From contig CP068257.2 in assembly GCA_009914755.4 (NCBI GenBank), positions 7,296,001-7,360,000 of the forward strand: 64,000 nt of DNA, given 5' to 3'. The position numbers and the translations under genes were made by a program. This DNA comes from the human T2T-CHM13v2.0 reference genome, Homo sapiens. Below are positions 14,065-48,340 of this stretch, piece by piece (position 1 is the first letter of the stretch; the number at the start of each line of letters is the position of its first letter). The notes below the pieces were generated by a model, which was not told the DNA's origin, did no database searches, and was given only the letters and a program-made list of their open reading frames with translations.

Positions 14065-14536
14065 AGAATGGAATGGAATGGAATGGAATGCAACGGAATC
14101 AACCCGAGTAGAATGGAATGGAAAGAAATGGAATGAAATGGATTGGAAAGGAATGGAATGGAATCAACACGAATGGAATGGAATGGAATGGAAAGGAATG
14201 AATGGAATGGAATGGAATGGTAGGGAATCAACACGAGTGGAATGGAATGGAATGGAATGGAATGGAATGCTATGCAATCAACAGGAGTGTAATGGAAATG
14301 AATGGAATGGAATGGAATGGAATGGAATGGAATAGAATGGAATAAACCAGAATGGAATGGAATGGAATGGATTGGAATGGAATGGAAGGGATTGGAATGC
14401 TATGCAATCAACAGGAGTGTAATGGAAATGAATAGAATGGAATGGAATGTAATGGAATGGAATGGAGTGGAATGGAAGGCAATGCCATGGAATGGAATGG
14501 AATGTAATGGAATGGAATGGAACGGAATGGAATTGA

Positions 14537-17500: not shown

Positions 17501-20500
17501 GGAAAGCAAAGGAATGGAATCAACCCGACTGGAATGGAATGGAATGGAAAGGAATGAAGGGAATGGAATGGAATGGAATGGAAAGGTATGGAATCAAGTC
17601 GAGTGGAATGGAATGGAATGGAATGGAATGGAATGGAATGGAGTGGAATGGAAGGCAAGGCAATGGAATGGAATGGAATGGAATGGAACGGAACGGAATG
17701 GAATTGAATGGCATGGAATGAACCCGACTGGAATGGAATGCAATGGAATGGAATGGAATGGAATGGAATGGAATGGAATGGAATGGAATGGAATAGAATC
17801 AAATCGAATGGAATGGAATGGAATGGAGTGGAATGGAATGGAATTGAATGGAATGGAATGGAATGGAAAGGAATCAACCTGGATGGAATGGAATGGAATG
17901 GAATGGAATGGAAAGGAATCAACCCGAGTGGAATGGAATGGAATGGAATTCAATGGAATGAAATGGAATGGGATGGTATGGAATCAACCCGAGTGGAATA
18001 TTATCGAATGAAATGGAATGGAATGGGATGGTATGGAATCAACCCGAGTGGAATATTATCGAATTAAATGGAATGGAACGGAATGGAATGGAATAAAATG
18101 CAATGGAATGGAATGGAATCAACCAGAGTGGAATGGAATATAATGGAATGGAATGGAATTAAATCGAGAGGAACAGAATGGAATCAACACGAGTGGAATG
18201 GAATGGAATGGAATGGAATGGAATCAACCCGAGTGGAATGGAATGGAATGGAATGCAATGGAATGAAGCGGAATATAATGCAATGGAATGGAAACATCCC
18301 GAGTGGAATGGAATGGTATGGAATGCAACGGAACGGAATGGAACAGAACGGAATGGAATGGAACGGAATAGATTGAATCAGAAAGGAATTGAATGCAGAG
18401 GAATGGATTGGAATGGAATGCAATGGATTCAACCCTAGTTGAATGTCATGGATTGGAAAGGAATGGAATGGAACGGAATGGAATGGAATGGAGTGGAATG
18501 GAATGGAACGGAGTGGAATGAAATGGTGTGGAATCAACACGAATGGAAAGGAACGAAATGGAATGGAATGGAATGGAATGGAATGGAATGGAATGGAAAC
18601 AACACGAATAGAATGGAACGGAATAGAATGGAATGCTGTGGAATGGAATGGAATGGAAAGGAATCAACCCGAGTGGAATGAAATGGAATGTAATGCAATG
18701 GAATGGAGCGGAATCAACCTGAGTCAAATGCAATGGAATGGAATGGAATGGAGTGGAATGGAATGGAATGGAATGGAATGGAGTGGAATGGAATGGAATG
18801 GAATGGAATGGAATGGAATGGAATGGAACGGAATGGAATCCAATGGAATCAACTGGAATGGAATAGCACAGAATGGAATGGAATGGAATGGAATCAATCC
18901 GGGTGGAATGGAATGGAATGTATGGAGTGGAATGGAATGGAATGGAGTGGAATGGAATGGAATGGAATGCAGCGGAATTTAATGGAACGGAATCAACCCG
19001 AATGGAATGGAATGGAATGGAGTGGAAAGGAATGGAATGGAATGGAATGGAATGGAATGGAATGGAATGGAATGGAATCAACCTGAATAGGATGGAATGG
19101 AATGGAATGGAATGGAATGGAATACAATGGAATGCTATGGAATAAACCCGAGTGTAATGGAAATGCATGGAATGGAATGGAATGGAATGAAATGGAATGG
19201 AATGGAATGGAATCAACCCAAGTGCAATGGAATGGAATGGAATGCAATGGTATCAACCCGAGTGGAATGGAATGGAAAGGAATGAAATGAAATGGAATGG
19301 AAAGGAATGGAATGGAATCAACCCGAATGGAATGGAATGGAATGGAATGGAAAGTAAAGAATGGAATGGAATGGAATGGATTGGAATGGAATGGTATGGA
19401 ATCAACCCGAGTGGAATGGAATGGACAGGAATGGAATAGAATGGAATGGGATGGAATGGAATGCAATGGAATGGAAAGGAATGGTACGGAATGGAACGGA
19501 ATGGAATAGAATGAACACGAATGGAATGGAATGGAAAGGAATGGATTGGAATGGAATGGAATGGAATCAACCCGAGTGGAACGGAATGTAATGAAATGGA
19601 GTGGAATGGAAAGGAATGGAATGGAATGGAATGAACACGAATGGAATGGAATGGAATGGAATGGAATGGAATGGAATGGAATGGTATGGAATCAACCCGA
19701 GTGGAATGGAATGGACAGGAATGGAATAGAATGGAATGGGATGGAATGGAATGCAATGGAATGGAATGGAATAGAAAGGAATGGTACGGAATGGAACGGA
19801 ATGGAATAGAATGAACACGAATGGAATGGAATGGAAAGGAATGGATTGGAATGGAATGGAATGGAATCAACCCGAGTGGAACGGAATGTAATGGAATGGA
19901 GTGGAATGGAATGGAATGGAATGGAATGGAATGGAATGGAATCAACACGAATGGAATGGAATGGCATGGAATGGAAGGGAATGGAATGAAATGGAATCAA
20001 CCCTAGTGGAATGGAATGGAATGGAGTTTAATGGAATGGAATAGAATAGATTGGTATGGAATCAACCCGAGAGGAATGGTATGGAATGGAATGCAATGGA
20101 ATGGAATGGAATGCAACAAAATGGAATGGAATGGAATGGTATCAACCCGTGTGGAAGGGAATGGAATGGAATGGAATCAACCGGAGTGGAATGGAATGGA
20201 ATGGAGTGGAATGGAATGGAATGCAATGAAATGGAAAGGAACGGAATTTAATCACCCCGAGTGGAATGGAATAGAATGGAATGGAAAGGAATGGAATCAA
20301 CCCGAGTGGAATGGAATGGAATGGAATGGAATGGAATGCAATGGAATCAACCAGAGTGGAAAGGAATAGAATGGAATGGATTATAATGCAATGGAATGGA
20401 ATCAATCCTGGTGGAATGGAACGGAATGGCATGGAGTGGAATGGAACGGAATGGAATGGAATGGAATGGAATGGAATGGAATGGAATGGAAAGGAATCAA

Positions 20501-23500
20501 CCCGAAAGGAATGGAATGGAATGAAATGGAAAGGAATGGAATGCAATGGATTGGAATGGAATGAAATGGATTCAACCCGAATGGAATGGAATGGAATGGA
20601 ATGGAATGGAATGTTATATAATCAACACGAGTGGAATGAAATGAATGGAAAGAAATGGAATGGAATGCAATGGAATGGAATGGAATGGAATGGAATGGAA
20701 TCAACCCGAATGGAATTGAATGGAAAGGAATGGAATGGAATGGATTGGAATGGAATGGAATGGAATGGAATGGAATGGAGTGGAATGGAATGGAATGGAA
20801 TCATCCCGAGTGGAATGGAATGGTATGGAATGTAATGGAATGGAATGGAACAGAACGGAAAGGAATGGAATGGAATAGATTGAATCTGAGAGGAATTGAC
20901 TGGAGTGGAATGGATGGAAATGGAATGCAAGGGATTCAACCCAGTTGAATGTCATGGATTGGAAAGGAGTGGAATGGAATGGAATGGAAAGGTGTGGAAT
21001 GGAATGGAATGGAATCAACACGAATGGAATGGAACGGAATGGAATGGAATGGAATGGAATGGAATGGAATGGAAACAACACGAATGGAATGGAACGGAAC
21101 GGAATGCAATGGAATGCTGTGGAATGCAATGAAATAAACACGAATAGAATTGACCGGAATGGAACGGAATGGAATGGAATGGAATGGAATGCAGTGGAAT
21201 GGCATGAAATGGAAAGGAACGGAATGGAATTAACCCGAGTGGAATGGAATGGAATGGAAAGGAATCAACCCGAGTGGAATGAAATGGAATGTAATGCAAT
21301 GGAATGGAGCAGAATCAATCTGAGTCTAATGCAATGGAATGGAAGGGAATGGAGTGGAATGGAATGGAATGGAATGGAATGGAATGGAATGGAATGGAAC
21401 GGAATAGAATCCAATGGAATCAACTGGGATGGAATAGCATAGAATGGAATGGAATGGAATGAAATCAATCCGGGTAGAATGGAATGGAATGTATGGAGTG
21501 GAATGGAATGGAATGGAGTGGAATGGAATGGAATGGTATGGAATCAACCCGAGTGGAATGGAATTGAATGGAATTCAATGGAATGAAACGGAATATAATG
21601 GAATGGATTGGAAACATCCCGAATGGAATGGAATGGTATGGAATGCAATGGAAAAGAATGGAAAAGAACGGAATGCAATGGAACGGAATAAATTGAATCA
21701 GAGAGGAATTCAATGGAGAGGAATGGACTGCAATGGAATGCAATGGATTCAAACCTAGTTGAATATTATGGATTGGAAAGGAATGGAATGGAATGCAGTG
21801 GAATGGAATGGAGTGGAATCAACACGAATGGAATGGAACGGAATGGAATGGAATGGAATGGAATGGAATGGAATGGAATGGAACGGAATGGAATGGAAAA
21901 AACACGAATAGAATGGAACGGAATGGAATGGAATGCTGTGGAATGGAATGGAATGGAATGAAATAAACACGAATAGAATGGAATGGAATGGAATGCAATG
22001 GAATGGAATGGAATGGAATGGAGTGAAAGGAAAGGAACGGAATGCAATTAACCTGAGTGGAATTGAATGGAATGGAAAGGAATGAACCCGAGTGGAATGA
22101 AATGTAATGTAATGCAATGGAATGGAGCGGAATCAACCTGAGTGGAATGGAATGGAATGGAATGGAATGGAATGGAATGCAATGGAATGGAATGGAATGC
22201 AATGGAATGGAATGCAATGGAATGGAATCAACCCGAATGGAATGGAACGGAATGGAATGGAAAGGAATGGAATGGAATGGAATGGAATGGAATGGAATGG
22301 AATGGAATTGAATGGAATGGAATCATCCCGAATGGAATGGAATGGTATGGAATGCAATGGAATGGAATGGAACAGAACAGAAAGGAATGGAATGGAATAG
22401 ATTGAATCCGAGAGGAATTGACTGGAGTTGAATGGATTGGAATGGAATGCAAGGGATTCAACCCAGTTGAATGTCATGGATTGGAAAGACTGGAATGAAA
22501 TGGAATGGAAAGGAGTGGAATGGAATGGAATGAAATCAACACGAATGGAATGGAACGTAAAGGAATGGGATGGAATGGAATGGAATGGAATGGCAACAAC
22601 ACGAATGGAATGGAAAGGAACGGAATGGAATGGAATGCTGTGGAATGGAATGGAATGGAATGGAATGGAATGGAATGGAATAGAATCAAATCGAATGGAA
22701 TGGAATGGAATGGAATGGAGTGGAATGGAATGGAATTGAATGGAATGGAATGGAATGGAAAGGAATCAACCTGGATGGAATGGAATGGAATGGAATGGAA
22801 TGGAAAGGAATCAACCCGAGTGGAATGGAATGGAATGGAATTCAATGGAATGAAATGGAATGGGATGGTATGGAATCAACCCGAGTGGAATATTATCGAA
22901 TGAAATGGAATGGAATGGGATGGTATGGAATCAACCCGAGTGGAATATTATCGAATTAAATGGAATGGAACGGAATGGAATGGAATAAAATGCAATGGAA
23001 TGGAATGGAATCAACCAGAGTGGAATGGAATATAATGGAATGGAATGGAATTAAATCGAGAGGAACAGAATGGAATCAACACGAGTGGAATGGAATGGAA
23101 TGGAATGGAATGGAATCAACCCGAGTGGAATGGAATGGAATGGAATGCAATGGAATGAAGCGGAATATAATGCAATGGAATGGAAACATCCCGAGTGGAA
23201 TGGAATGGTATGGAATGCAACGGAACGGAATGGAACAGAACGGAATGGAATGGAACGGAATAGATTGAATCAGAAAGGAATTGAATGCAGAGGAATGGAT
23301 TGGAATGGAATGCAATGGATTCAACCCTAGTTGAATGTCATGGATTGGAAAGGAATGGAATGGAACGGAATGGAATGGAATGGAGTGGAATGGAATGGAA
23401 TGGAGTGGAATGAAATGGTGTGGAATCAACACGAATGGAAAGGAAAGAAATGGAATGGAATGGAATGGAATGGAATGGAATGGAATGGAAACAACACGAA

Positions 23501-23869
23501 TAGAATGGAACGGAATGGAATGGAATGCTGTGGAATGGAATGGAATGGAAAGGAATCAACCCGAGTGGAATGAAATGGAATGTAATGCAATGGAATGGAG
23601 CGGAATCAACCTGAGTCAAATGCAATGGAATGGAATGGAATGGAGTGGAATGGAATGGAATGGAATGGAATGGAGTGGAATGGAATGGAATGGAATGGAA
23701 TGGAATGGAATGGAATGGAATGGAACGGAATGGAATCCAATGGAATCAACTGGAATGGAATAGCACAGAATGGAATGGAATGGAATGGAATCAATCCGGG
23801 TGGAATGGAATGGAATGTATGGAGTGGAATGGAATGGAATGGAGTGGAATGGAATGGAATGGAATGCAG
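14537..23869. repeat. ~9.3 kb super-repeat, copy 1 (type II body + type I module + PQRS head)
   Basis: Collinear with 23870-33200 at an offset of 9372 shrinking to 9297. Anchors 14892/24264, 15077/24449, 16086/25433, 17449/26781, 18068/27390, 20016/29333, 22117/31414, 22960/32267 and 23770/33082 all agree. Sampled stretches of 60-150 bp are identical or differ by 1 base. Confidence 0.72.
18068..22960. repeat. HSat3 higher-order module 'type I', copy 1 (4892 bp), sub-block order P-Q-R-S-T-U-V-A-W-X-Y-Z
   Basis: Anchor peptides at fixed spacing: P MEWNGMEWNKMQWNGMESTRVEWNIMEWNGIKSRG at 18068, Q MNVMDWKGMEWNG at 18439, R MERNQPESNAMEWNG at 18703, S MEWNGMESIRVEWNGMYGVEWNG at 18873, A MEWSLMEWNRIDWYGIN at 20016, W MNVMDWKGVEWNGMERCG at 20945, X MEWNGMKSIRVEWNGMYGVEWNG...WYGINPSGMELNG at 21444, Y MERNGLQWNAMDSNLVE at 21713, Z MEWSGINLSGMEWNG at 22117, and the next P at 22960. 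Confidence 0.75.
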
Positions 23870-26800
23870 CGGAATTTAATGGAACGGAATCAACCCGAAT
23901 GGAATGGAACGGAATGGAGTGGAATGGAATGGAATGGAATGGAATGGAATGGAATGGAATGGAATGGAATGGAATGGAATGGAATCAACCCGAATGGAAT
24001 CGAATGGAATGGAATGGAGTGGAATGGAATGGAATTGAATGGAATGGAATAGAATGGAATGGAAAGGAATCAACCCGAATTGAATGGAATGGAATGGAAT
24101 GGAATGGAATGGAATGGAATGGAATCGAATGGAATGGAATGGAATCAACCCGAGTGGAATGGAATGGAATGGAATGGAATGGAATCAACCTGAATGGAAT
24201 GGAATGGAATGGAATGGAAAGGAATGGAATGGAATGGAATGGAATGGAATGGAATGGAATGGAATAGAATGGAATCAACAAGAATGGGATGGAATAGAAT
24301 GGAATGGAATGGAATGGAAAGGAATCCTATTGAATCAACCCGAGTGTAATGGAAAAGAATGGAATGGAATGGAATGGAACGGAATGCAATGGAATGGAAT
24401 CAAACCAAGTGCAATGGAATGGAATAGAATGCAACGGAACCAACCCGAGTGGAATGGAATAGAAAGGCATGCAATGGAATGGAATGGAAAGCAGTGGAAT
24501 GGAATCAACCCGACTGGAATGGAGTGGAATGGAAAGGAATGAAGGGAATGGAATGGAATGGGAAGGTATGGAATCAACCCGAGTGGAATGGAATGGAATG
24601 GAATGGAATGGAATGGAATGGAGTGCAATGGAATGGAATGGAATGGAATGGAGTGGAATGGAATGGAGTGGAATGGAATGGAGTGGAATCGAGTGGAATG
24701 GAATGGAATGGAGTGGAATGGAAGGCAATGAAATTTTATGGAATGGAATAGAAAGGAGCGGAACAGAATGGAATTGAATGGCATGGAATGGACCCGAATG
24801 CAATGGAATGGAATGGAATGGAATGGAATGGAATGGAATGGAATCAACCCGAATGGAATGGAATGGAATGGAATGGAATGGAATGGAATGGAATTAAATG
24901 GAAAGGAACGGAATGGAATCAACAAGAGTGGAATGGAATGGAATGTAATGGAATGGAATGGAATGGAATGGAATCAATCCGAGTGGAATGGAACGGAATG
25001 GAATGGAATGCAATGGAATGGAATGGAAAGGAATGGAATGGAGTGGAATGGAAGGCAAGGCAATGGAATGGAATGGAATGGAACGGAATGGAATTCAATG
25101 GCATGGAATGAACCCGACTGGAATGGAATGCAATGGAATGGAATGGAATGGAAAGGAATGGAATGGAATCAACCCGAATGGAATGGAATGGAATGGAATG
25201 GAGTGGAATGGAATGGAATTGAATGGAATGGAATGGAATGGAGAGGAATCAACCCGAATGGAATAGAATGGAATGGAATGGAATGGAATGGAATGGAATG
25301 GAATGGAATGGAATGGAATCAACCCGAGTGGAATGGAATGGAATGGAATTCAATGGAATGGAATGGAATGGGATGGTAAGGAATCAACCTGAGTGGAATA
25401 TTATCGAATGAAATGGATTGGAATGGGACGGTATGGAATCAACCCGAGTGGAATATTATCGAATGAAATGGAATGGAACGGAATGGAATGGAATAAAATG
25501 TAATGGAATGGAATGGAATCAACTGGAGTGCAATGGAATAGAATGGAATAAAATGGAATGGAATGGAATTAAATGGAAAGGAATGGAATGGAATCAACAC
25601 GAGTGGAATGGAATGGAATGGAATGGAAGGGAATAGAATGGAATGGAATGGAATCAACCGGAGTGCAATGGAATGGAATGGAATAAAATGGAATGGAATG
25701 GAATTAAATGGAAAGGAACGGAATGGAATCAACACGAGTGGAATGGAATGGAATGGAATGGAATGGAATGGAATGGAATGGAATCAATCCGAGTGGAATG
25801 GAATGGAATGGAATGCAATGGAATGAAACGGAATATAATGGAATGGAATGGAAACATCCCGAGTGGAATGGAATGGTATGGAATGCAATGGAACGGAATG
25901 GAACAGAACGGAATGGAATGGAATGGAATAGATTGAATCAGAGAGGAATTGAATGGAGAGGAATGGAATGGAATGGAATGCAATGGATTCAACTCTAGTT
26001 GAATATCATGGATTGGAAAGGAATGGAATGGAATGGAATGGAATGGAATGGAATGGAATGGAGTGGAATGGAATAGAATCAACTCGAGTGCAATGGAATG
26101 TAATGGAATGGAGTGGAATGGAATGGAATGCAATGAAATGGAAAGGAATGCTATGGAATCAACCCGAGTGTAATGGAAATGAATGGAATGGAATTGAATA
26201 GAAAGGAATGAATGGAATGGAATGGAATGGAATGGAATGGTATGGAATCAACCCGAGTGGAATGGAAAGGACTGGAATGGAATAGAATGGAATGGAATGG
26301 AATGGAATGCAACGGAATCAACCCGAGTAGAATGGAATGGAAAGAAATGGAATGAAATGGAATGGAAAGGAATGGAATGGAATCAACACGAATGGAATGG
26401 AATGGAATGGAAAGGAATGAATGCAATGGAATGGAATGGAATGGAATGGTAGGGAATCAACCCGAGTGGAATGGAATGGAATGGAATGGAATGGAATGGA
26501 ATGGAATGGAATCCAGCCGAATGGGATGGAATGCAATGGAATGGAATGGAATAGAATCAACCCGAATGGAATGGAACGGAATGGAATGAAAAGGAATGGA
26601 ATGGAAAGGAATGGAATGGAATAGAATGGAATAAACCAGAATGGAATGGAATGGAATGGATTGGAATGGAATGGAATGGAATGGAATGCTATGGAATCAA
26701 CAGGAGTGTAATGGAAATGAATGGAATGGAATGGAATGGAATGGAATAAACCCAAGTGCAATGGAATGGAATAGAATGCAATGGAATCAACCCAAGTGGA

Positions 26801-27390
26801 ATGGAATAGAAATGCATGCAATGGAATGGAATGGAAAGCAAAGGAATGGAATCAACCCGACTGGAATGGAATGGAATGGAAAGGAATGAAGGGAATGGAA
26901 TGGAATGGTATGGAAAGGTATGGAATCAAGTCGAGTGGAATGGAATGGAATGGAATGGAATGGAATGGAATGGAATGGAGTGGAATGGAAGGCAAGGCAA
27001 TGGAATGGAATGGAATGGAATGGAACGGAACGGAATGGAATTGAATGGCATGGAATGAACCCGACTGGAATGGAATGCAATGGAATGGAATGGAATGGAA
27101 TGGAATGGAATGGAATAGAATCAAATCGAATGGAATGGAATGGAATGGAGTGGAATGGAATGGAATTGAATGGAATGGAATGGAATGGAAAGGAATCAAC
27201 CTGGATGGAATGGAATGGAATGGAATGGAATGGAAAGGAATCAACCCGAGTGGAATGGAATGGAATGGAATTCAATGGAATGAAATGGAATGGGATGGTA
27301 TGGAATCAACCCGAGTGGAATATTATCGAATGAAATGGAATGGAATGGGATGGTATGGAATCAACCCGAGTGGAATATTATCGAATTAAA
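22960..27390. repeat. Hybrid unit (4430 bp): type I head P-Q-R-S (22960 to ~23900) joined to a type II body (~23900-27390)
   Basis: P 22960, Q 23331, R 23595 and S 23770 match type I. From ~23985 the sequence follows the type II order seen at 14537-18068: 24264 matches 14892, 24449 matches 15077, 25433 matches 16086, 26781 matches 17449, at offsets of 9372 down to 9332. The junction falls inside a pure (GGAAT)n run (MEWNGMEWNGMEWNG...) around 23900-23990. Confidence 0.65.
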
Positions 27391-33200: not shown

Positions 33201-36200
33201 ATCAAGCCGAATGGAATGGAACGGAATGGAGTGGAAAGGAATGGAATGGAATGGAATGGAATGGAATGGAATGGAATGGAATGGAATCAACCTGAATAGG
33301 ATGGAATGGAATGGAATGGAATGGAATGGAATACAATGGAATGCTATGGAATAAACCCGAGTGTAATGGAAATGCATGGAATGGAATGGAATGGAATGGA
33401 ATGGAATGGAATCAACCCAAGTGCAATGGAATGGAATGGAATGCAATGGTATCAACCCGAGTGGAATGGAATGGAAAGGAATGAAATGAAATGGAATGGA
33501 AAGGAATGGAATGGAATCAACCCGAATGGAATGGAATGGAATGGATTGGAAAGTAAAGAATGGAATGGAATGGAATGGATTGGAATGGAATGGTATGGAA
33601 TCAACCCGAGTGGAATGGAATGGACAGGAATGGAATAGAATGGAATGGGATGGAATGGAATGCAATGGAATGGAAAGGAATGGTACGGAATGGAACGGAA
33701 TGGAATAGAATGAACACGAATGGAATGGAATGGAAAGGAATGGATTGGAATGGAATGGAATGGAATCAACCCGAGTGGAACGGAATGTAATGAAATGGAG
33801 TGGAATGGAAAGGAATGGAATGGAATGGAATGAACACGAATGGAATGGAATGGAATGCAATGGAATGGAATGGAATGGAATGGAATGGAATGGTATGGAA
33901 TCAACCCGAGTGGAATGGAATGGACAGGAATGGAATAGAATGGAATGGGATGGAATGGAATGCAATGGAATGGAATGGAATAGAAAGGAATGGTACGGAA
34001 TGGAACGGAATGGAATAGAATGAACACGAATGGAATGGAATGGAAAGGAATGGATTGGAATGGAATGGAATGGAATCAACCCGAGTGGAACGGAATGTAA
34101 TGGAATGGAGTGGAATGGAATGGAATGGAATGGAATGGAATGGAATGGAATGGAATGGAATCAACACGAATGGAATGGAATGGCATGGAATGGAAGGGAA
34201 TGGAATGAAATGGAATCAACCCTAGTGGAATGGAATGGAATGGAGTTTAATGGAATGGAATAGAATAGATTGGTATGGAATCAACCCGAGAGGAATGGTA
34301 TGGAATGGAATGCAATGGAATGGAATGGAATGCAACAAAATGGAATGGAATGGAATGGTATCAACCCGTGTGGAAGGGAATGGAATGGAATGGAATCAAC
34401 CGGAGTGGAATGGAATGGAATGGAGTGGAATGGAATGGAATGCAATGAAATGGAAAGGAACGGAATTTAATCACCCCGAGTGGAATGGAATAGAATGGAA
34501 TGGAAAGGAATGGAATCAACCCGAGTGGAATGGAATGGAATGGAATGGAATGGAATGCAATGGAATCAACCAGAGTGGAAAGGAATAGAATGGAATGGAT
34601 TATAATGCAATGGAATGGAATCAATCCTGGTGGAATGGAACGGAATGGCATGGAGTGGAATGGAACGGAATGGAATGGAATGGAATGGAATGGAATGGAA
34701 TGGAATGGAAAGGAATCAACCCGAAAGGAATGGAATGGAATGAAATGGAAAGGAATGGAATGCAATGGATTGGAATGGAATGAAATGGATTCAACCCGAA
34801 TGGAATGGAATGGAATGGAATGGAATGTTATATAATCAACACGAGTGGAATGAAATGAATGGAAAGAAATGGAATGGAATGCAATGGAATGGAATGGAAT
34901 GGAATGGAATGGAATGGAATGGAATCAACCCGAATGGAATTGAATGGAAAGGAATGGAATGGAATGGATTGGAATGGAATGGAATGGAATGGAATGGAAT
35001 GGAGTGGAATGGAATGGAATGGAATCATCCCGAGTGGAATGGAATGGTATGGAATGCAATGGAATGGAATGGAACAGAATGGAAAGGAATGGAATGGAAT
35101 AGATTGAATCTGAGAGGAATTGACTGGAGTGGAATGGATGGAAATGGAATGCAAGGGATTCAACCCAGTTGAATGTCATGGATTGGAAAGGAGTGGAATG
35201 GAATGGAATGGAAAGGAGTGGAATGGAATGGAATGGAATCAACACGAATGGAATGGAACGGAATGGAATGGAATGGAATGGAATGGAATGGAATGGAAAC
35301 AACACGAATGGAATGGAACGGAACGGAATGCAATGGAATGCTGTGGAATGCAATGAAATAAACACGAATAGAATGGACCGGAATGGAACGGAATGGAATG
35401 GAATGGAATGGAATGCAGTGGAATGGCATGAAATGGAAAGGAACGGAATGGAATTAACCCAAGTGGAACGGAATGGAATGGAAAGGAATCAACCCGAGTG
35501 GAATGAAATGGAATGGAATGCAATGGAATGGAGCAGAATCAATCTGAGTCTAATGCAATGGAATGGAAGGGAATGGAGTGGAATGGAATGGAATGGAATG
35601 GAATGGAATGGAATGGAATGGAACGGAATAGAATCCAATGGAATCAACTGGGATGGAATAGCATAGAATGGAATGGAATGGAATGAAATCAATCCGGGTA
35701 GAATGGAATGGAATGTATGGAGTGGAATGGAATGGAATGGAGTGGAATGGAATGGAATGGTATGGAATCAACCCGAGTGGAATGGAATTGAATGGAATTC
35801 AATGGAATGAAACGGAATATAATGGAATGGATTGGAAACATCCCGAATGGAATGGAATGGTATGGAATGCAATGGAACAGAATGGAAAAGAACGGAATGC
35901 AATGGAACGGAATAGATTGAATCAGAGAGGAATTCAATGGAGAGGAATGGACTGCAATGGAATGCAATGGATTCAAACCTAGTTGAATGTTATGGATTGG
36001 AAAGGAATGGAATGGAATGCAGTGGAATGGAATGGAGTGGAATCAACACGAATGGAATGGAACGGAATGGAATGGAATGGAATGGAATGGAATGGAATGG
36101 AATGGAACGGAATGGAATGGAAAAAACAAGAATAGAATGGAAAGGAATGGAATGGAATGCTGTGGAATGGAATGGAATGGAATGAAATAAACACGAATAG

Positions 36201-36950
36201 AATGGAATGGAATGGAATGCAATGGAATGGAATGGAATGGAATGGAGTGAAAGGAAAGGAACGGAATGCAATTAACCTGAGTGGAATTGAATGGAATGGA
36301 AAGGAATGAACCCGAGTGGAATGAAATGTAATGTAATGCAATGGAATGGAGCGGAATCAACCTGAGTGGAATGGAATGGACTGGAATGGAATGGAATGGA
36401 ATGGAATGGAATGGAATGGAATGCAATGGAATGGAATGCAATGGAATGGAATCAACCCGAATGGAATGGAACGAAATGGAATGGAAAGGAATGGAATGGA
36501 ATGGAATGGAATGGAATGGAATTGAATGGAATGGAATCATCCCGAGTGGAATGGAATGGTATGGAATGCAATGGAATGGAATGGAACAGAACAGAAAGGA
36601 ATGGAATGGAATAGATTGAATCCGAGAGGAATTCACTGGAGTTGAATGGATTGGAATGGAATGCAAGGGATTCAACCCAGTTGAATGTCATGGATTGGAA
36701 AGAGTGGAATGAAATGGAATGGAAAGGAGTGTAATGGAATGGAATGAAATCAACACGAATGGAATGGAACGTAAAGGAATGGAATGGAATGGAATGGAAT
36801 GGAATGGCAACAACACGAATGGAATGGAAAGGAAGGGAATGGAATGGAATGCTGTGGAATGGAATGGAATGGAATGAAATAATCACGAATAGAATGGAAC
36901 GGAATTGAACGGAATGGAATGGAATGGAATGGAATGGAATGGAATGGAAA
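32267..36950. repeat. HSat3 type I module, copy 3 (3' end diverges after the Z block, ~36.7-36.95 kb)
   Basis: Anchors P 32267, Q 32638, R 32912, S 33082, A 34235, W 35169, X 35668, Y 35937, Z 36341. It lies directly in tandem with copy 2. Beyond about 36.9 kb the sequence no longer follows the type I order. Confidence 0.65.
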
Positions 36951-38990
36951 GGAATGGAGTGGAATGGAGTAAACACCAGTGGAATGAAATGGAATCAAAT
37001 GAAATAGAATGGAATGGAATGGAATGGAATGGAATGGAATGGAATGGAATGGAATGAACCCGAATGGAATGGAATGGAATGGAATGGAATGGAATGGAAT
37101 GAAATCAACCCAAGTGGAATGGAACGGAATGGAATGCAATTGAATGGAATGGAAATGAATGGAATCAACTGTAATGGAATTAAGTGGAATGGAATAGAGT
37201 GGAATGGAATGGAATGCCATGGAATCAACCCGAGTTAAATGCAATGAAATGTAATGGAATGGAATGGAATGCAATGGAATGGAATGGAATCAACTCGAGT
37301 GGAGTGGAATAAAATGGAATGGAATGGAATGGAATCCACCCGAGTGGAATGGAATGGAATGGAATGGAATGGAATGGAATGGAATCAACCCGAGAGGAAT
37401 AAAACGGAATAGAATGGAATGGAATCAACCCGAGAGGAACGGAATGGAATGCAATGGAATGGCATCAACCCGAGTGGAATGGAATGGAAAGGAATGGAAT
37501 GGAACAGAACGGAATGCAATGGAATCACCTGGAATGGAATAGAATGGATTGGAATGGAATGGAATGGAATGGTATGGAATCAACCAGAGTGGAATAGTAT
37601 GGAATGGAATGGAATGGAATGCCATAAAATGGAATGTAATGCAATGGAATCCACCCGAGTGGAATTGAATGGAATGGAAGGGAAGGGAACGGAATCTAAT
37701 GATTTTAACCCGAGTGGAATGGAATGGAATGGAAGGAATGGAATCAACCCGAGTGGAATGAAATGGAATGTAATGCAATGGAATGGAGAGGAAAAAACTC
37801 GAATGGAATAGAATGGAATGGAATGGACTGCAATGGAATGGAACGGAATGGAATCCAATGGAAACATCTGGAAAGGAATGGAATGGAATGGAATGGAGTG
37901 GAATGGAATCAATCCGGGTGGAATGGAATGGAATCTAAAGGAGTAGAATGGAATGGAATGGAATGGAATGGAATGGAACGGAATGGAACGAAATGGATTT
38001 GAATGGCATGGAATGAACCCGAAAGGAATGGAATGGAATGGAATGGAATAGAATGGAATGGAATGAAATGGAATAGAAACAACTGGAGTGGAATGGAATG
38101 TAATGGAATGGAGTGGAATGGAATGGAATTGAATGGAATGGAATGCGATGGAATGGAATCAACCCGATTGGAATGGAATGGAATGGAAAGGAATGGAATG
38201 GAATCAACCAGAGTGGAATGGAATGGAATGGAATGCAATGGAATTGAACAGAATACAATGGAATTGAATGGAGTCATCCCGAGTGGAATGGGATTGTATG
38301 CAATGCAACGGAATGGAATGGAACAGAACGGAATGGAATGGAATCAATAGATTGAATCCGAGTGGAATTGAATGGAATGGAATGGATTGGAATGGAATGG
38401 AATGGATTGGAATGGAAAGCAATGGTTTCAAACCGATTGGAATGTCATGGATTGCAATGGAGTGGAATGGAATGGAATGGAAAGGAATGGACTGGAATGG
38501 AGGAAACACCAGTGGAATGAAAGGGAATGGAATGAAATAGAATGGAATGGAATGGAATGGAATGAACCCGAATGGAATGGAATGGAATGGAAAGAAATCA
38601 ACCCGAGTGGAATGGAACGGATTGGAATGCAATTAAATGGAATGGAAAGGAATGGAAATAAAACGAATGGAATGGAACGGAATGGAAAGGAATGGAATGG
38701 AATGGAATGGAAACAACACGAATGGAATGGAACGGAACGGAATGGAATGGAATGCTGTGGAATGGAATGGAATGGAATGAAATAAACACGAATAGAATGG
38801 AACGGAATGGAATTAACCCGAGTGGAACGGAATGGAATGGAATGGAATGGAATGGAATCCAGCCGAATGGGATGGATTGCAATGGAATGGAATGGAATGG
38901 AATAGAATCAACCCGAATGGAATGGAACGGAATGGAATGAAAAGGAATGGAATGGAAAGGAATGGAATGGAATAGAATGGAATAAACCAG
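36950..38990. repeat. Divergent HSat3 segment lacking the named type I/II anchors, with an internal ~1.5 kb duplication
   Basis: None of the P...Z or D anchors occur in this segment. ggaatggag[t/g]aaacaccagtggaatgaaa[t/g]ggaat...gaaatagaatggaatggaatgg occurs at 36961 and again at 38501 (offset 1540). MEWNEPEWNGMEW[NK][GE]...INPSGMER[NI]GMQLNGME occurs at 37053 and ~38552. Confidence 0.5.
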
Positions 38991-39770
38991 AATGGAATGG
39001 AATGGAATGGATTGGAATGGAATGGAATGGAATGGAATGCTATGGAATCAACAGGAGGGTAATGGAAATGAATGGAATGGAATGGAATGGAATGGAATAA
39101 ACCCAAGTGCAATGGAATGGAATAGAATGCAATGGAATCAACCCAAGTGGAATGGAATAGAAAGGCATGCAATGGAATGGAATGGAAAGCAAAGGAATGG
39201 AATCAACCAGACTGGAATGGAATGGAATGGAAAGGAATGAAGGGAATGGAATGGAATGGAAAGGTATGGAATCAACTCGAGTGGAATGGAATGGAATGGA
39301 ATGGAATGGAATGGAATGGAATGGAATGGAATGGAGTGGAATGGAAGGCAAGGCAATGGAATGGAATGGAATGGAATGGAACGGAACGGAATGGATTTGA
39401 ATGGCATAGAATGAACCCGACTGGAATGGAATGCAATGGAATGGAATGGAATGGAATGGAATGGAATGGAATGGAATGGAAAAGAATCAAATCGAATGGA
39501 ATGGAATGGAATGGAATGGAGTGGAATGGAATGGAATTGAATGGAATGGAATGGAATGGAAAGGAATCAACCCGGATGGAATGGAATGGAATGGAATGGA
39601 ATGGAATGGAATGGAATGGAATCAAACCGAGTGGAATGGAATGGAATGGAATTCAATGGAATGAAATGGAATGGGATGGTATGGAATCAACCCGAGTGGA
39701 ATATTATCGAATGAAATGGAATGGAATGGGATGGTATGGAATCAACCCGAGTGGAATATTATCGAATTAA

Positions 39771-42700
39771 ATGGAATGGAACGGAATGGAATGGAATAAA
39801 ATGCAATGGAATGGAATGGAATCAACCAGAGTGGAATGGAATATAATGGAATGGAATGGAATTAAATCGAGAGGAACAGAATGGAATCAACACGAGTGGA
39901 ATGGAATGGAATGGAATGGAATGGAATCAACCCGAGTGGAATGGAATGCAATGGAATGAAGCGGAATATAATGCAATGGAATGGAAACATCCCGAGTGGA
40001 ATGGAATGGTATGGAATGCAACGGAATGGAATGGAACAGAACGGAATGGAATGGAACGGAATAGATTGAATCAGAGAGGAATTGAATGCAGAGGAATGGA
40101 TTGGAATGGAATGCAATGGATTCAACCCTAGTTGAATGTCATGGATTGGAAAGGAATGGAATGGAACGGAATGGAATGGAATGGAGTGGAATGAAATGGT
40201 GTGGAATCAACACGAATGGAAAGGAACGAAATGGAATGGAATGGAATGGAATGGAATGGAATGGAATGGAATGGAATGGAATGGAAACAACACGAATAGA
40301 ATGGAACGGAATGGAATGGAATGCTGTGGAATGGAATGGAATGGAAAGGAATCAACCCGAGTGGAATGAAATGGAATGTAATGCAATGGAATGGAGCGGA
40401 ATCAACCTGAGTCAAATGAAATGGAATGGAGTGGAATGGAGTGGAATGGAATGGAATGGAATGGAATGGAATGGAATGGAACGGAATGGAATCCAATGGA
40501 ATCAACTGGAATGGAATAGCACAGAATGGAATGGAATGGAATGGAATCAATCCGGGTGGAATGGAATGGAATGTATGGAGTGGAATGGAATGGAATGGAG
40601 TGGAATGGAATGGAATGGAATGCAGCGGAATTTAATGGAACGGAATCAACCCGAATGGAATGGAACGGAATGGAGTGGAAAGGAATGGAATGGAATGGAA
40701 TGGAATGGAATGGAATGGAATCAACCTGAATAGGATGGAATGGAATGGAATGGAATGGAATACAATGGAATGCTATGGAATAAACACGAGTGTAATGGAA
40801 ATGCATGGAATGGAATGGAATGGAATGGAATGGAATCAACCCAAGTGCAATGGAATGGAATGGAATGCAATGGTATCAACCCGAGTGGAATGGAATGGAA
40901 AGGAATGAAATGAAATGGAATGGAAAGGAATGGAATGGAATCAACCCGAATGGAATGGAATGGAATGGAATGGAATGGAAAGTAAAGAATGGAATGGAAT
41001 GGAATGGATTGGAATGGAATGGTATGGAATCAACCCGAGTGGAATGGAATGGACAGGAATGGAATAGAATGGAATGGGATGGAATGGAATGCAATGGAAT
41101 GGAAAGGAATAGTACGGAATGGAACGGAATGGAATAGAATGAACACGAACGGAATGGAATGGAAAGGAATGGATTGGAATGGAATGGAATGGAATCAACC
41201 CGAGTGGAACGGAGTGTAATGAAATGGAGAGGAAAGGAAAGGAATGGAATGGAATGGAATAAACACGAATGGAATGGAATGGAATGGAATGGAATGGAAT
41301 GGAATGGAATGGTATGGAATCAACCCGAGTGGAATGGAATGGACAGGAATGGAATAGAATGGAATGGGATGGAATGGAATGCAATGGAATGGAATGGAAT
41401 AGAAAGGAATGGTACGGAATGGAACGGAATGGAATAGAATGAACACGAATGGAATGGAATGGAAAGGAATGGATTGGAATGGAATGGAATGGAATCAACC
41501 CGAGTGGAACGGAATGTAATGGAATGGAGTGGAATGGAATGGAATGGAATGGAATGGAATGGAATGGAATCAACACGAATGGAATGGAATGGCATGGAAT
41601 GGAAGGGAATGGAATGAAATGGAATCAACCCTAGTGGAATGGAATGGAATGGAGTTTAATGGAATGGTATAGAATAGATTGGTATGGAATCAACCCGAGA
41701 GGAATGGTATGGAATGGAATGCAATGGAATGGAATGGAATGCAACAAAATGGAATGGAATGGAATGGTATCAACCCGAGTGGAAGGGAATGGAATGGAAT
41801 GGAATCAACCGGAGTGGAATGGAATGGAATGGAGTGGAATGGAATGGAATGCAATGAAATGGAAAGGAACGGAATTTAATCACCCCGAGTGGAATGGAAT
41901 AGAATGGAATGGAAAGGAATGGAATCAACCCGAGTGGAATGGAATGGAATGGAATGGAATGGAATGGAATGGAATGGAATGGAATCAACCTGAGTGGAAT
42001 GGAATGGAATGGAATGGAATGGAATGGAATGAACACGAGTGGAATGGAATAGAATGAAATGCAATGGAATGAAATGGAATGCAATGGAATGGAATGGAAT
42101 GCAAGGCATTGGAATCAACTGGAATGGAATGGAATGCAATGGAATGGAATGGAATGCAATGGAATCAACCAGAGTGGAAAGGAATAGAATGGAATGGATT
42201 ATAATGCAATGGAATGGAATCAATCCTGGTGGAATGGAACGGAATGGCATGGAGTGGAATGGAACGGAATGGAATGGAATGGAATGGAATGGAATGGAAT
42301 GGAATGGAAAGGAATCAACCCGAAAGGAATGGAATGGAATGAAATGGAAAGGAATGGAATGCAATGGATTGGAATGGAATGAAATGGATTCAACCCGAAT
42401 GGAATGGAATGGAATGGAATGGAATGTTATATAATCAACACGAGTGGAATGAAATGAATGGAAAGAAATGGAATGGAATGCAATGGAATGGAATGGAATG
42501 GAATGGAATGGAATCAACCCGAATGGAATTGAATGGAAAGGAATGGAATGGAATGGATTGGAATGGAATGGAATGGAATGGAATGGAATGGAGTGGAATG
42601 GAATGGAATGGAATCATCCCGAGTGGAATGGAATGGTATGGAATGCAATGGAATGGAATGGAACAGAACGGAAAGGAATGGAATGGAATAGATTGAATCT

Positions 42701-44560
42701 GAGAGGAATTGACTGGAGTGGAATGGATGGAAATGGAATGCAAGGGATTCAACCCAGTTGAATGTCATGGATCGGAAAGGAGTGGAATGGAATGGAATGG
42801 AAAGGAGTGGAATGGAATGGAATGGAATCAACACGAATGGAATGGAACGGAATGGAATGGAATGGAATGGAATGGAATGGAATGGAATGGAATGGAATGG
42901 AATTGAATGGAATGGAAACAACACGAATGGAATGGAACGGAACGGAATGCAATGGAATGCTGTGGAATGCAATGAAATAAACACGAATAGAATGGACCGG
43001 AATGGAACGGAATGGAATGGAATGGAATGGAATGCAGTGGAATGGCATGAAATGGAAAGGAACGGAATGGAATTAACCCGAGTGGAACGGAATGGAATGG
43101 AAAGGAATAAACCCGAGTGGAATGAAATGGAATGTAATGCAATGGAATGGAGCAGAATCAATCTGAGTCTAATGCAATGGAATGGAAGGGAATGGAGTGG
43201 AATGGAATGGAATGGAATGGAATGGAATGGAATGGAATGGAACGGAATAGAATCCAATGGAATCAACTGGGATGGAATAGCATAGAATGGAATGGAATGG
43301 AATGAAATCAATCCGGGTAGAATGGAATGGAATGTATGGAGTGGAATGGAATGGAATGGAGTGGAATGGAATGGAATGGTATGGAATCAACCCGAGTGGA
43401 ATGGAATTGAATGGAATTCAATGGAATGAAACGGAATATAATGGAATGGATTGGAAACATCCCGAATGGAATGGTATGGAATACAATGGAATAGAATGGA
43501 AAAGAACGGAATGCAATGGAACGGAATAGATTGAATCAGAGAGGAATTCAATGGAGAGGAATGGACTGCAATGGAATGCAATGGATTCAAACCTAGTTGA
43601 ATGTTATGGATTGGAAAGGAATGGAATGGAATGCAGTGGAATGGAATGGAGTGGAATCAACACGAATGGAATGGAACGGAATGGAATGGAATGGAATGGA
43701 ATGGAATGGAATGGAACGGAATGGAATGGAAAAAACACGAATAGAATGGAACGGAATGGAATGGAATGCTGTGGAATGGAATGGAATGGAATGAAATAAA
43801 CACGAATAGAATGGAATGGAATGGAATGCAATGGAATGGAATGGAATGGAATGGAGTGAAAGGAAAGGAACGGAATGCAATTAACCTGAGTGGTATTGAA
43901 TGGAATGGAAAGGAATGAACCCGAGTGGAATGAAATGTAATGTAATGCAATGGAATGGAGCGGAATCAACCTGAGTGGAATGGAATGGAATGGAATGGAA
44001 TGGAATGGAATGGAATGGAATGCAATGGAATGGAATGGAATGCAATGGAATGGAATGCAATGGAATGGAATCAACCCGAATGGAATGGAACGGAATGGAA
44101 TGGAAAGGAATGGAATGGAATGGAATGGAATGGAATGGAATGGAATGGAATGGAATCATCCCGAGTGGAATGGAATGGTATGGAATGCAATGGAATGGAA
44201 TGGAACAGAACAGAAAGGAATGGAATGGAATAGATTGAATCCGAGAGGAATTGACTGGAGTTGAATGGATTCGAATGGAATGCAAGGGATTCAACCCAGT
44301 TGAATGTCATGGATTGGAAAGGAGTGGAATGAAATGGAATGGAAAGGAGTGGAATGGAATGGAATGGAATCAACACGAATGGAATGGAACGTAAAGGAAT
44401 GGAATGGAATGGAATGGAATGGAATGGAATGGAATGGCAACAACACGAATGGAATGGAAAGGAACGGAATGGAATGGAATGCTGTGGAATGGAATGGAAT
44501 GGAATGAAATAATCACGAATAGAATGGAACGGAATTGAACGGAATGGAATGGAATGGAAT
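39771..44560. repeat. HSat3 type I module, copy 4 (its A block carries an extra ~180 bp pure-pentamer stretch, as in the copy at 966-1394)
   Basis: Anchors P 39771, Q-like 40136, S 40526, A 41644 (long version MEWSLMEWYRIDWYGIN...MEWNEHEWNGIE), W 42758, X 43287, Y 43551, Z 43950, and a tail at 44304 matching 22428 and 36680. Confidence 0.65.
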
Positions 44561-47299: not shown

Positions 47300-48340
47300 G
47301 CAATGGAATGGAATGGAATGGAATCAACCCAAATGAAATGGAACGGAATGGAATGGAAAGGAATGGAATGGAATGGAATGGAATGGAATGGAATCATCTC
47401 GAGTGGAATGGAATGGTATGGAATGCAATGGAATGGAATGGAACAGAACGGAAAGGAATGGAATGGAATAGATGGAATACGAGAAGAATTGACTGGAGTG
47501 GAATGGATTAGAATGCAATGCAAGGGATTCAACCCAGTTGAATGTCATGGATTGGAAAGCACTGGAATGGAATGGAGTGGAAAGTAGTGGAATGGAATGG
47601 AATGCAATGAACACGAATGGAATGGAATGGAAAGGAATGGAATGGAATGGAACGGAATGCAATGGAATGGAATGGAATGGAATCAACACGAATGGAATGG
47701 AACAGAATGGAATGGAAAGGAATGGAATGGAATGGAATGGAATGGAATGGAATCATCCAGAGTAGAAGGGAATGGTATGCAATGCAATGGAATGGAATGG
47801 AACAAAAAGGAAAGGAATGGAATGGAATAGGTTGAATCCGAGAGGAATTTACTGGAGTGGAATGGATTGGAATGGAATGCAAGGGATTCAACCCAGTTGA
47901 ATGTCATGGATTGGAAAGGAGTGGAATGGAATGGAATGGAAAGGAGTGGAATGGAATGGAATGCAATCAACACGAATGGAATGGAAAGGAACGGAAAGGA
48001 ATGGAATGGAATGGAATGGAATGGAATGGAATGGAATGGAAACAACACGAATGGAATGGAACGGAACGGAATGGAATGAAATGCTATAGAATGGAATGGA
48101 GTGGAATGAAATAAACACGAATAGAATGGAACGGAATGGAACGGAATGGAATGGAATGGAATCAACAGGACGGTAATGGAATGGAATGGAATGGAATGGA
48201 ATGGAATGGAATGGAACGGAACGGAATCACCCTGAGTGTAATGGAAGGGAATTGAATGGATTGGAATCAACGGCAGTGGAATGGAAAGGAATGGAATGGA
48301 ATGGAAGGCAGTGGAATTAACTGGAATGGAAAGGAATGCA
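47300..48340. repeat. Block X (copy 1 of a pair)
   Basis: Matches 51850-53160. gaaagcactggaatgg occurs at 47555 and 52101, offset 4546. MSWIGKEWNGMEWKGVEWNGMQS[TK]RMEW occurs at 47901 and 52697, offset 4796. aataaacacgaatagaatggaacggaatggaacgg occurs at 48107 and 52903. ggaatcaccctgagtgtaatggaagggaattgaatggattggaatcaacgg occurs at 48226 and 53051. Confidence 0.6.

What the first reader, a model, noticed from the sequence alone, without database searches (positions are those of the whole stretch)
18068..44560. A ~4.9 kb 'type I' module occurs four times with different neighbours, a footprint of unequal exchange
The ordered block series P-Q-R-S-T-U-V-A-W-X-Y-Z occurs at 18068-22960, 27390-32267, 32267-36950 and 39771-44560. 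Copies 2 and 3 are directly tandem. Copy 1 is followed by a hybrid unit, and copy 4 is preceded by a type II tail (38992-39771, matching 26641-27390). Between copies 3 and 4 lies a ~2 kb divergent insert. Copy 4 carries the long A-block variant also seen at 966-1394. One module sitting in different contexts indicates repeated unequal crossing-over or gene conversion within the array.
Basis: seen in the sequence. Interest (0 to 1): 0.5.

Follow-up and report, generated by a model that had tools for sequence, protein, structure and literature searches.

The report
Satellite III array with kilobase repeats
The window is one uninterrupted stretch of primate satellite III DNA (GGAAT repeats) in which a 4.9 kb unit really does recur four to five times. 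This is the ordinary, already described "nested tandem repeat" structure of such satellites, shaped by unequal exchange, so it is not a new kind of element.

Summary
A ~4.9 kb "type I" module lies at 18068-22960, 27390-32267, 32267-36941 and 39771-44571, with a partial fifth copy at 1-~2250. Over the shared 4.6 kb, copies 1-3 are 99.4-99.6% identical at aligned bases and 97.3-98.0% if gap columns count. Copy 4 is 98.8-99.0% at aligned bases and 91.4-91.7% with gap columns, mostly because of one 190-bp indel. Out-of-register background is ~76-79%.

The whole 64 kb is single-strand (GGAAT)n with CAAC(C/A)CGAGT-type decamers, the published formula for human satellite III.

The neighbours are less independent than claimed:
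- Copies 1 and 2 share both flanks, as parts of a duplicated 9.3 kb super-unit.
- Copies 3 and 4 share the same right-hand breakpoint plus 65 identical bases.
- A ~1.3 kb junction segment is 99-100% identical at four unit boundaries.

Exchange points lie inside perfect pentamer runs, and all indels among copies 1-3 are multiples of 5 bp. This fits unequal exchange plus slippage. Sequence alone cannot separate crossing-over from gene conversion or replication-based duplication.

Multi-kb nested repeats with locally varying period are already described for HSat2/3 in the T2T papers. Species, chromosome and subfamily could not be determined. Interest is low.

The parts
1..64000 (+). Uninterrupted satellite III-type array. 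The GGAAT-rich strand is the + strand. There is no inversion and no non-satellite insert.
   Evidence: TRF finds period 5 over 5-64000. GC skew is +0.62 to +0.68 in every 2 kb window. There are no minus-strand self hits. 54% of bases lie in exact GGAAT, there are 431 CAACNNGART decamers, and no 200-bp window has under 15% GGAAT cover.
1..2250 (+). Partial type I copy (c0), covering unit positions ~990-3000, cut by the window edge. It carries the long A-block variant.
   Evidence: Tiles match type I at 94-100%. In the 5-way alignment c0 is 96.8-97.0% identical to the others and shares the 190-bp segment with c4.
14565..17745 (+). Type II body, earlier copy. It is the left part of the first 9.3 kb super-unit.
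   Evidence: 97-100% identical to 23927-27067. The left boundary of high identity is at 14565, matching 23927.
17746..19090 (+). Junction segment J (~1.3 kb), made of the last ~320 bp of the preceding unit plus the first ~1010 bp of type I. It recurs at 22633-23990, 27068-28400 and 31934-33279.
   Evidence: Pairwise identity is 98.9-99.3% over 1317-1335 bp. Boundaries come from the 50-bp identity profiles.
18068..22960 (+). Type I copy 1.
22960..27390 (+). Hybrid unit (4.43 kb). It has a type I head (22960-~23990) joined to a type II body and tail. The switch is at ~23927-23998.
   Evidence: Over unit positions 1-2709 it is only 85.5% identical to type I overall.
27390..32267 (+). Type I copy 2, used as the reference (4878 bp).
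   Evidence: It has the fewest private substitutions, 4.
32267..36941 (+). Type I copy 3, directly tandem to copy 2. It leaves the copy 1/2 sequence at 36876 and shares 65 more bases with copy 4.
36942..38828 (+). Divergent satellite stretch between copies 3 and 4.
   Evidence: The best matches anywhere in the window are 81-88%. It is still pentameric.
38829..39771 (+). Type II tail preceding copy 4.
   Evidence: The alignment with 26483-27390 jumps from background to ~99% at 38829.
39771..44571 (+). Type I copy 4, the most diverged of the four. It leaves the copy 1/2 sequence at 44506.
   Evidence: It has 38 private substitutions, 17 of them clustered at unit positions 434-489.
41948..42137 (+). 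190-bp segment present in c4 and c0 and absent from c1-c3. Whether it is an insertion or a deletion is unresolved.
22633..22690 (+). Derived junction shared by copies 1 and 2 (also at 31934-31990). Type I sequence switches to type II-tail sequence inside a perfect (AATGG)n run.
44572..48200 (+). Older, fragmented type I-like relics at ~88-94% identity.

Best explanation
The window is a piece of a satellite III (HSat3-type) heterochromatic array from a human or another hominid genome. The ancestral (GGAAT)n pentamer, interrupted by CAAC(C/A)CGAGT-like decamers, has diverged enough that kilobase stretches are distinguishable. Those stretches have then been re-amplified as 'nested tandem repeats'.

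In the left 45 kb, two related units alternate as a 9.3 kb super-unit: type I (4.88 kb) and type II/hybrid (4.43 kb). They share a ~1.3 kb junction segment.

The present order is II-body, I, hybrid, I, I(truncated), divergent, II-tail, I(truncated), relics. It is best explained by a few rounds of out-of-register homologous exchange between misaligned repeats (sister chromatids or homologues). The exchange points lie in shared segments or perfect pentamer runs. Pentamer slippage then added the 5n-bp indels.

Shown: the copies, their identities, the shared breakpoints, the 5n indels and the single orientation. Inferred: the mechanism, the order of events, and the genomic origin.
For: Family.
- Period-5 array over the whole window.
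- GGAAT rotations dominate, and there are 431 CAACNNGART motifs, led by CAACCCGAGT with 155.
- This matches the published formula (GGAAT)n CAAC(C/A)CGAGT (PMC2241877, read).

Repeat structure.
- k-mer spacing peaks at 9.3, 4.9 and 4.4 kb.
- An 11.5 kb alignment at offset 9327.
- Copy identities of 99.4-99.6% for c1-c3 and 98.8-99.0% for c4, against a 76-79% background.

Mechanism.
- Every indel among c1-c3 is a multiple of 5 bp.
- The type I to type II-tail switch in c1 and c2 lies in a perfect (AATGG)n run.
- The hybrid's I/II switch lies in a ~70-bp stretch similar to both parents.
- c3 and c4 share a breakpoint.
- All copies are head-to-tail on one strand.
- The I-I tandem (c2-c3) is the product expected from exchange between the J segment ahead of a type I unit and the J segment ahead of a type II unit.

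Literature.
- HSat2/3 form multi-kb nested tandem repeats whose period varies within an array, with local recent expansions (bioRxiv 10.1101/2021.07.12.452052, main text and Fig. S10 legend).
- Unequal exchange is invoked for the HSat3 DYZ1 array (bioRxiv 10.1101/2022.12.01.518724).
- Unequal crossover or conversion is invoked for satellites in general (PMC4022460).
Against: - No reference genome was available, so species, chromosome and HSat3 subfamily are unconfirmed.
- None of the 14 'most common subfamily-specific 24-mers' of Altemose 2014 occurs exactly in the window.
- Informative substitutions among the four copies are almost absent, one 12|34 and one 14|23. The order of events is therefore weakly constrained.
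- Crossing-over, gene conversion and replication-based duplication leave the same static footprint.
- Read-level support for the assembly could not be examined.
Confidence: 0.85

Rival explanations
1. The pattern comes from gene conversion (non-reciprocal homogenisation) without copy-number change. Pre-existing diverged units were overwritten in patches by a type I donor. This would produce near-identical modules in different contexts, and the 1.3 kb junction segment common to type I and type II boundaries.
For: - The J segment is 99-100% identical at four boundaries, whichever unit precedes or follows it.
- The hybrid unit has a type I head on a type II body.
- c0 is a mosaic. One 500-bp tile is 100% identical to c2, while its A-block is c4-like.
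- c4 has a 55-bp patch holding 17 of its 38 private substitutions.
Against: - Conversion tracts of 4.6-9.3 kb would be unusually long.
- The 9.3 kb periodicity with both flanks shared and the I-I tandem are explained more simply by duplication.
- The two processes are not exclusive and probably both act.
Confidence: 0.3
2. The duplications arose by replication-based mechanisms rather than meiotic or mitotic crossing-over. Candidates are template switching, break-induced replication, or re-insertion of extrachromosomal circles.
For: - Junctions lie in short perfect pentamer runs, which provide microhomology.
- The divergent 1.9 kb stretch between c3 and c4 has no close donor in the window.
Against: Nothing in the sequence specifically requires this. 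There are no inverted segments or templated insertions typical of template switching, since no minus-strand matches were found. Extensive homology is available for ordinary homologous exchange.
Confidence: 0.15
3. Part of the arrangement is an assembly artefact of long-read assembly in a satellite. This could apply to the hybrid unit, the I-I tandem or the truncated ends.
For: Satellite arrays are error-prone to assemble, and no read data were available to me. The only outside sequence sharing a type I block was a short-read metagenome contig. It joins that block to an unrelated GGAGT-rich satellite, which shows how easily chimeras form.
Against: - The copies carry private substitutions and indels.
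- Junction types recur. The c1/c2 junction occurs twice, the c3/c4 junction twice, and J four times.
- The structure is internally consistent with a simple tree.
Confidence: 0.05
4. The 4.9 kb module is a mobile or composite element that inserted repeatedly into the satellite.
For: The same module appears next to several different sequences (the finding itself).
Against: - The module is itself pentamer satellite throughout.
- It is always in the same orientation and in register with neighbouring units.
- It has no terminal repeats or target-site duplications, and its ends are homology switch points inside pentamer runs.
- There are no Rfam hits.
- The ORFs are artefacts of a pentamer that has no stop codon in any frame.
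Confidence: 0.01

Closest known systems
Human satellite III (HSat3; classical satellite 3, (GGAAT)n/(CATTC)n with CAAC(C/A)CGAGT 'terminator' decamers)
   Same: The pentamer base unit, the decamer motif and its variants, the strand asymmetry, and the long uninterrupted array (formula from PMC2241877).
   Different: No exact match to the top diagnostic 24-mer of any of the 14 published HSat2/3 subfamilies. Subfamily, chromosome and even species (human or another ape) remain open.
Nested tandem repeats (NTRs) of HSat2/3 as defined in the T2T-CHM13 centromere study
   Same: - Multi-kb repeat units built from a diverged simple repeat.
- A period that differs between neighbouring sub-regions. Here it is 9.3/4.9/4.4 kb, then ~6.1 kb, then 3.6 kb.
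- Patches of recent local expansion.
   Different: The particular unit lengths of 4.88, 4.43 and 9.3 kb are not among the classical clone unit sizes listed by Altemose 2014 in Table S1, which run from 584 to 3564 bp. I could not check the T2T periodicity tables, which are figures.
DYZ1 (Y-chromosome HSat3A6, ~3.56 kb unit)
   Same: It is a pentamer-derived kilobase repeat evolving by unequal exchange. The right end of the window has a 3598-bp period.
   Different: The HSat3A6 diagnostic 24-mer is absent, with 0 hits at up to 1 mismatch. The module under study is 4.9 kb, not 3.6 kb.
Alpha-satellite higher-order repeats and their structural variants
   Same: Hierarchical repeats, hybrid and truncated units created by out-of-register exchange, and a young homogeneous core flanked by older, more diverged copies.
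   Different: There is no discrete ~171-bp monomer. The units have irregular length and are built from 5-bp repeats, which is why the T2T authors call them NTRs rather than HORs.

Membership tests
Human satellite III (HSat3) | Array derived from the pentamer GGAAT/CATTC | tested here: met
   TRF finds period 5 over 5-64000 with 73% matches. The five rotations of GGAAT are the top 5-mers, and 54% of bases lie in exact GGAAT.
Human satellite III (HSat3) | Runs of GGAAT separated by the CAAC(C/A)CGAGT-type decamer (formula in PMC2241877) | tested here: met
   431 CAACNNGART motifs, about one per 148 bp. Counts: CAACCCGAGT 155, CAACACGAAT 57, CAACCCGAAT 55, CAACACGAGT 29.
Human satellite III (HSat3) | Assignment to one of the 11 HSat3 subfamilies by subfamily-specific 24-mers (Altemose 2014) | tested here: inconclusive
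   Only the single most common 24-mer per subfamily was available (Table 1). None occurs exactly, and the hits at up to 1 mismatch are few and scattered (A4 5, B5 3, B1 2). The full 24-mer list is truncated in the held copy.
Human satellite III (HSat3) | Pericentromeric or acrocentric/Yq location in a human (hominid) genome | not testable with these tools
   No eukaryotic reference genome is searchable here. One metagenome contig shares 338 bp. There was no hit in the bacterial or archaeal genome contigs.
Nested tandem repeat (NTR) organisation of HSat2/3 | Kilobase-scale tandem periodicity superimposed on the simple repeat, without discrete monomers | tested here: met
   Spacing peaks at 9.3, 4.9 and 4.4 kb. 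Copies are 97-99.6% identical against a 76-79% background.
Nested tandem repeat (NTR) organisation of HSat2/3 | Periodicity varies locally within an array, with patches of recent expansion | tested here: met
   Dominant spacing is 9.3/4.9 kb in 14.5-37 kb, 6.1 kb in 48.3-57.5 kb, and 3.55-3.6 kb in 57.5-64 kb. See also the dot plot.
Human satellite II (HSat2) | HSat2-type diverged units and diagnostic 24-mers | tested here: not met
   Zero hits for the HSat2A1, 2A2 and 2B 24-mers, even at 2 mismatches.
DYZ1 / HSat3A6 | ~3.56 kb unit carrying HSat3A6-specific 24-mers | tested here: not met
   A 3598-bp period exists only at 57.6-63.8 kb. The HSat3A6 24-mer has 0 hits at up to 1 mismatch. The module in question is 4.9 kb.
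Transposable or composite element | Terminal repeats, target-site duplication, coding or structured-RNA content, variable orientation | tested here: not met
   The ends are homology switch points in pentamer runs. All copies have one orientation. There are no Rfam families. The ORFs are pentamer artefacts.

The most novel reading that the evidence does not exclude
The ~1.3 kb junction segment is kept 99-100% identical at four consecutive unit boundaries, while the unit bodies on either side are only ~85% alike. It could be a preferred recombination or conversion site, or a functionally constrained element such as a satellite III transcription or protein-binding module, that drives local expansion of an undescribed 4.9/9.3 kb HSat3 repeat variant. 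The evidence does not exclude this. However, the same pattern is expected from two or three recent neutral exchange events.
Probability: 0.05. Interest if true: 0.35.

Novelty: already known. Interest (0 to 1): 0.12.

Why it matters
The result is mainly a sanity check. The scan picked up a real, well-resolved example of how satellite III arrays are built: a pentamer, then kilobase units, then a 9.3 kb super-unit, with hybrid and truncated units marking exchange points inside perfect pentamer runs. Maps like this are useful for studying how heterochromatic arrays expand and for checking satellite assemblies. Both the architecture and the proposed mechanism are textbook and described in the T2T papers. 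Nothing here changes what is known.

Tried and rejected
- Whole-window self-BLAST with short words timed out. With permissive scoring it aligned everything to everything at ~76-79%, which was useful only as a background level.
- Subfamily assignment using the 14 published top 24-mers gave no exact hit. The full 24-mer list in the held supplement is cut after HSat2A1.
- I looked for the same module elsewhere. A 41-mer specific to type I gave one metagenome contig (L001) that shares only 338 bp and is otherwise a different, GGAGT-rich satellite. It gave nothing in the bacterial or archaeal genome contigs. A sensitive BLAST of L001 timed out.
- The Rfam scan found nothing.
- The ORF list shows 34 ORFs of at least 200 aa on both strands. 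I rejected these as coding because the pentamer has no stop codon in any frame.
- A heat-shock element scan (GAAnnTTCnnGAA) found none.
- I tried to order events from shared substitutions. There are only two informative substitutions, and they conflict. Shared indels in pentamer runs are prone to recurring independently.
- The polarity of the 190-bp indel could not be settled from the older relics.
- A mobile-element reading was rejected (see rival explanations).
Full report
**What the window is.**
- Tandem Repeats Finder reports one array of period 5 (consensus GAATG) from base 5 to base 64000.
- G+C is 0.40-0.42 and GC skew is +0.62 to +0.68 in every 2 kb window.
- No self-match on the opposite strand was found. 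The whole window is therefore one uninverted satellite with its GGAAT-rich strand on top.
- The five rotations of GGAAT are by far the commonest 5-mers, and 54% of bases lie in exact GGAAT.
- No 200-bp window drops below 15% GGAAT cover, so there is no transposon or unique insert.
- The runs are punctuated about every 148 bp by 431 CAACNNGART decamers: CAACCCGAGT 155, CAACACGAAT 57, CAACCCGAAT 55, CAACACGAGT 29.
- This is the published formula of human satellite III, (GGAAT)n CAAC(C/A)CGAGT (PMC2241877, read).
- HSat2 diagnostic 24-mers are absent even at two mismatches.

**Checking the observation.** With 27390-32267 as query, strict BLAST finds three matches:
- 18068-22960, at 97.6% over 4933 columns;
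- 32267-37120, at 96.2%;
- copy 4 in two pieces, 39771-42163 at 91.6% and 42792-44600 at 96.8%.

A MAFFT alignment restricted to the truly shared span (4580-4736 bp per copy) gives the following.

| Comparison | Substitutions | Identity at aligned bases | Indels | Identity counting gap columns |
|---|---|---|---|---|
| c1, c2, c3 among themselves | 18-26 | 99.43-99.60% | 7-13, all multiples of 5 bp | 97.3-98.0% |
| c4 against the others | 46-53 | 98.8-99.0% | 16-18, including one of 190 bp | 91.4-91.7% |

Counting each gap as one event, c4 is 98.5% identical to the others. Out-of-register alignments of this satellite give 76-79%, so the copies are far above chance.

- Copies 2 and 3 abut at 32267.
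- The unit after copy 1 is a hybrid.
- A type II tail precedes copy 4, but it starts at 38829 (matching 26483), not at 38992.
- 36942-38828 has no match better than 81-88%.
- The long A-block is a 190-bp segment (41948-42137). It is missing from copies 1-3 and present in a fifth, partial copy at the window start.

**Finer anatomy.** Tile mapping against a type I reference and a type II reference and a dot plot give this order:

| Coordinates | Content |
|---|---|
| 1-~2250 | partial type I copy (c0) |
| 2250-14500 | older mixed type I-like and type II-like pieces, with a 9.1 kb period (2104-5174 matches 11202-14267 at 95.7%) |
| 14565-17745 | type II body |
| 18068-22960 | copy 1 |
| 22960-27390 | hybrid unit |
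| 27390-32267 | copy 2 |
| 32267-36941 | copy 3 |
| 36942-38828 | divergent stretch |
| 38829-39771 | type II tail |
| 39771-44571 | copy 4 |
| 44572-~48200 | ~90% type I-like relics |
| 48400-57200 | separate domain with a period of ~6.1 kb |
| 57592-63836 | separate domain with a period of 3598 bp, 97.8% identical |

**The junction segment.** Type I and type II are themselves relatives, 85.5% identical over unit positions 1-2709. A ~1.3 kb segment J, made of the last ~320 bp of a unit plus the first ~1010 bp of the next, is 98.9-99.3% identical at 17746, 22633, 27068 and 31934. This holds whichever unit type lies on either side.

**How independent are the 'different neighbours'?**
- Copies 1 and 2 share both flanks. 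The stretch 14565-23990 is duplicated at 23927-33279, a 9.3 kb super-unit present twice.
- Copies 3 and 4 leave the copy 1/2 sequence at the same base (36876 and 44506). They run on identically for 65 bp, to 36941 and 44571, and only then fall to 71-80%.
- The 45-mer preceding that point occurs 14 times in the window. In 12 of these it is followed by AAATAAnCACGAATAGAATGG..., the continuation seen in copies 3 and 4.
- Only in copies 1 and 2 is it followed by type II-tail sequence, and that switch lies inside a perfect (AATGG)n run. The right end of copies 1 and 2 is therefore the derived junction.
- Together with the 190-bp character (c0 and c4 against c1-c3), the data fit a simple tree, ((c1,c2),c3),c4.
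- Private substitution counts are c2 4, c3 11, c1 12 and c4 38. Of the c4 substitutions, 17 lie in one 55-bp patch.
- Informative substitutions are almost nil.

**Mechanism.** Four features are what out-of-register homologous exchange between misaligned repeats predicts, with pentamer slippage superimposed:
- the head-to-tail, single-strand arrangement;
- exchange points in shared segments or perfect pentamer runs;
- a hybrid unit whose I/II switch lies in a ~70-bp stretch similar to both parents;
- indels that are strictly multiples of 5 bp.

An exchange between the J segment ahead of a type I unit and the J segment ahead of a type II unit yields exactly an I-I tandem such as copies 2-3. Gene conversion probably contributes: J is homogeneous, and c0 is a mosaic. 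Replication-based duplication cannot be excluded. A static sequence does not separate these. A mobile-element reading is rejected, and an assembly artefact is unlikely but untestable here.

**Comparison with what is known.**
- The T2T-CHM13 centromere study states that HSat2 and HSat3 can be organised in multi-kilobase units. It names these nested tandem repeats.
[quoted passage not shown] Its Fig. S10 legend describes local recent expansions and wide variation in NTR length within one HSat3B3 array.
- The T2T-Y study attributes HSat3/DYZ1 rearrangements to unequal exchange.
- Altemose 2014 cites unequal crossover or sequence conversion as the general mechanism.
- The unit sizes found here (4.88, 4.43 and 9.3 kb) are not among the classical clone sizes in that paper's Table S1, which run from 584 to 3564 bp.
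- None of the 14 top subfamily 24-mers matches exactly. With only one k-mer per subfamily available, this is inconclusive.
- I could not place the window on a chromosome or confirm the species.

**Outside sequences.** A type I-specific 41-mer occurs five times exactly in the window, once in each copy, and twice more with one mismatch in the older relatives. In public metagenome contigs it occurs once. That contig, L001, shares only 338 bp at 98.5% and is otherwise a GGAGT-rich, decamer-free satellite. There was no hit in the bacterial or archaeal genome contigs.

**Verdict.** The feature is an ordinary example of nested tandem repeat structure in satellite III DNA. It is already known in kind, and its interest is low.

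Noticed in passing
window 57592-63836: A separate repeat domain. 57592-60239 matches 61190-63836 at 97.8% with an offset of 3598 bp. The period is similar to the Y-chromosome DYZ1 unit, but the DYZ1/HSat3A6 diagnostic 24-mer is absent.
   Followed up: partly
window 48400-57200: Another local period of ~6.1 kb, shifting to ~5.6 kb, at 88-95% identity. For example, 48501 matches 54615 and 51001 matches 56592. This domain is unrelated at high identity to the type I and type II units.
   Followed up: partly
window 2104-5174 and 11202-14267: An older 9.1 kb-offset duplication at 95.7%. It consists of a type I-like stretch that is only ~91-96% identical to the young copies. Two further type II bodies lie between, at ~5250-7500 and ~7750-10750.
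   Followed up: partly
type I unit, e.g. 29961-30428 vs 31450-31954; 21960 vs 22662: Type I contains internal paralogy. Unit positions ~2570-3040 resemble ~4060-4530 at 92-94%. A 45-mer ending in GCTGTGG(AATGG)4AATG occurs twice per unit, ~700 bp apart. The nesting therefore has more than two levels.
   Followed up: partly
window 40205-40260 (copy 4, unit positions 434-489): 17 of copy 4's 38 private substitutions fall in one 55-bp patch. This suggests a small replaced or converted tract, or a local misalignment.
   Followed up: no
whole window: The density of CAACNNGART decamers falls from ~29-35 per 4 kb on the left to ~18-22 per 4 kb on the right. This parallels the change from young homogenised units to older or different domains.
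   Followed up: no
whole window: There are about 91 TEAD-like GGAATG sites per kb but no canonical heat-shock element (GAAnnTTCnnGAA or its complement). CpG count is 1119 against 1548 expected from base composition.
   Followed up: no
whole window, both strands: There are 34 mechanical ORFs of at least 200 aa (up to 448 aa), because GGAAT and ATTCC repeats have no stop codon in any frame. They are not evidence of genes.
   Followed up: partly
L001 1-2535 (metagenome contig ERZ1033813 NODE-7841): 338 bp at its end (2198-2535) match the type I block around unit position ~1930-2270 at 98.5%. The other 2.2 kb are a GGAGT-rich pentamer satellite without decamers. This is either a different genomic context for the block or a short-read chimera.
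   Followed up: partly
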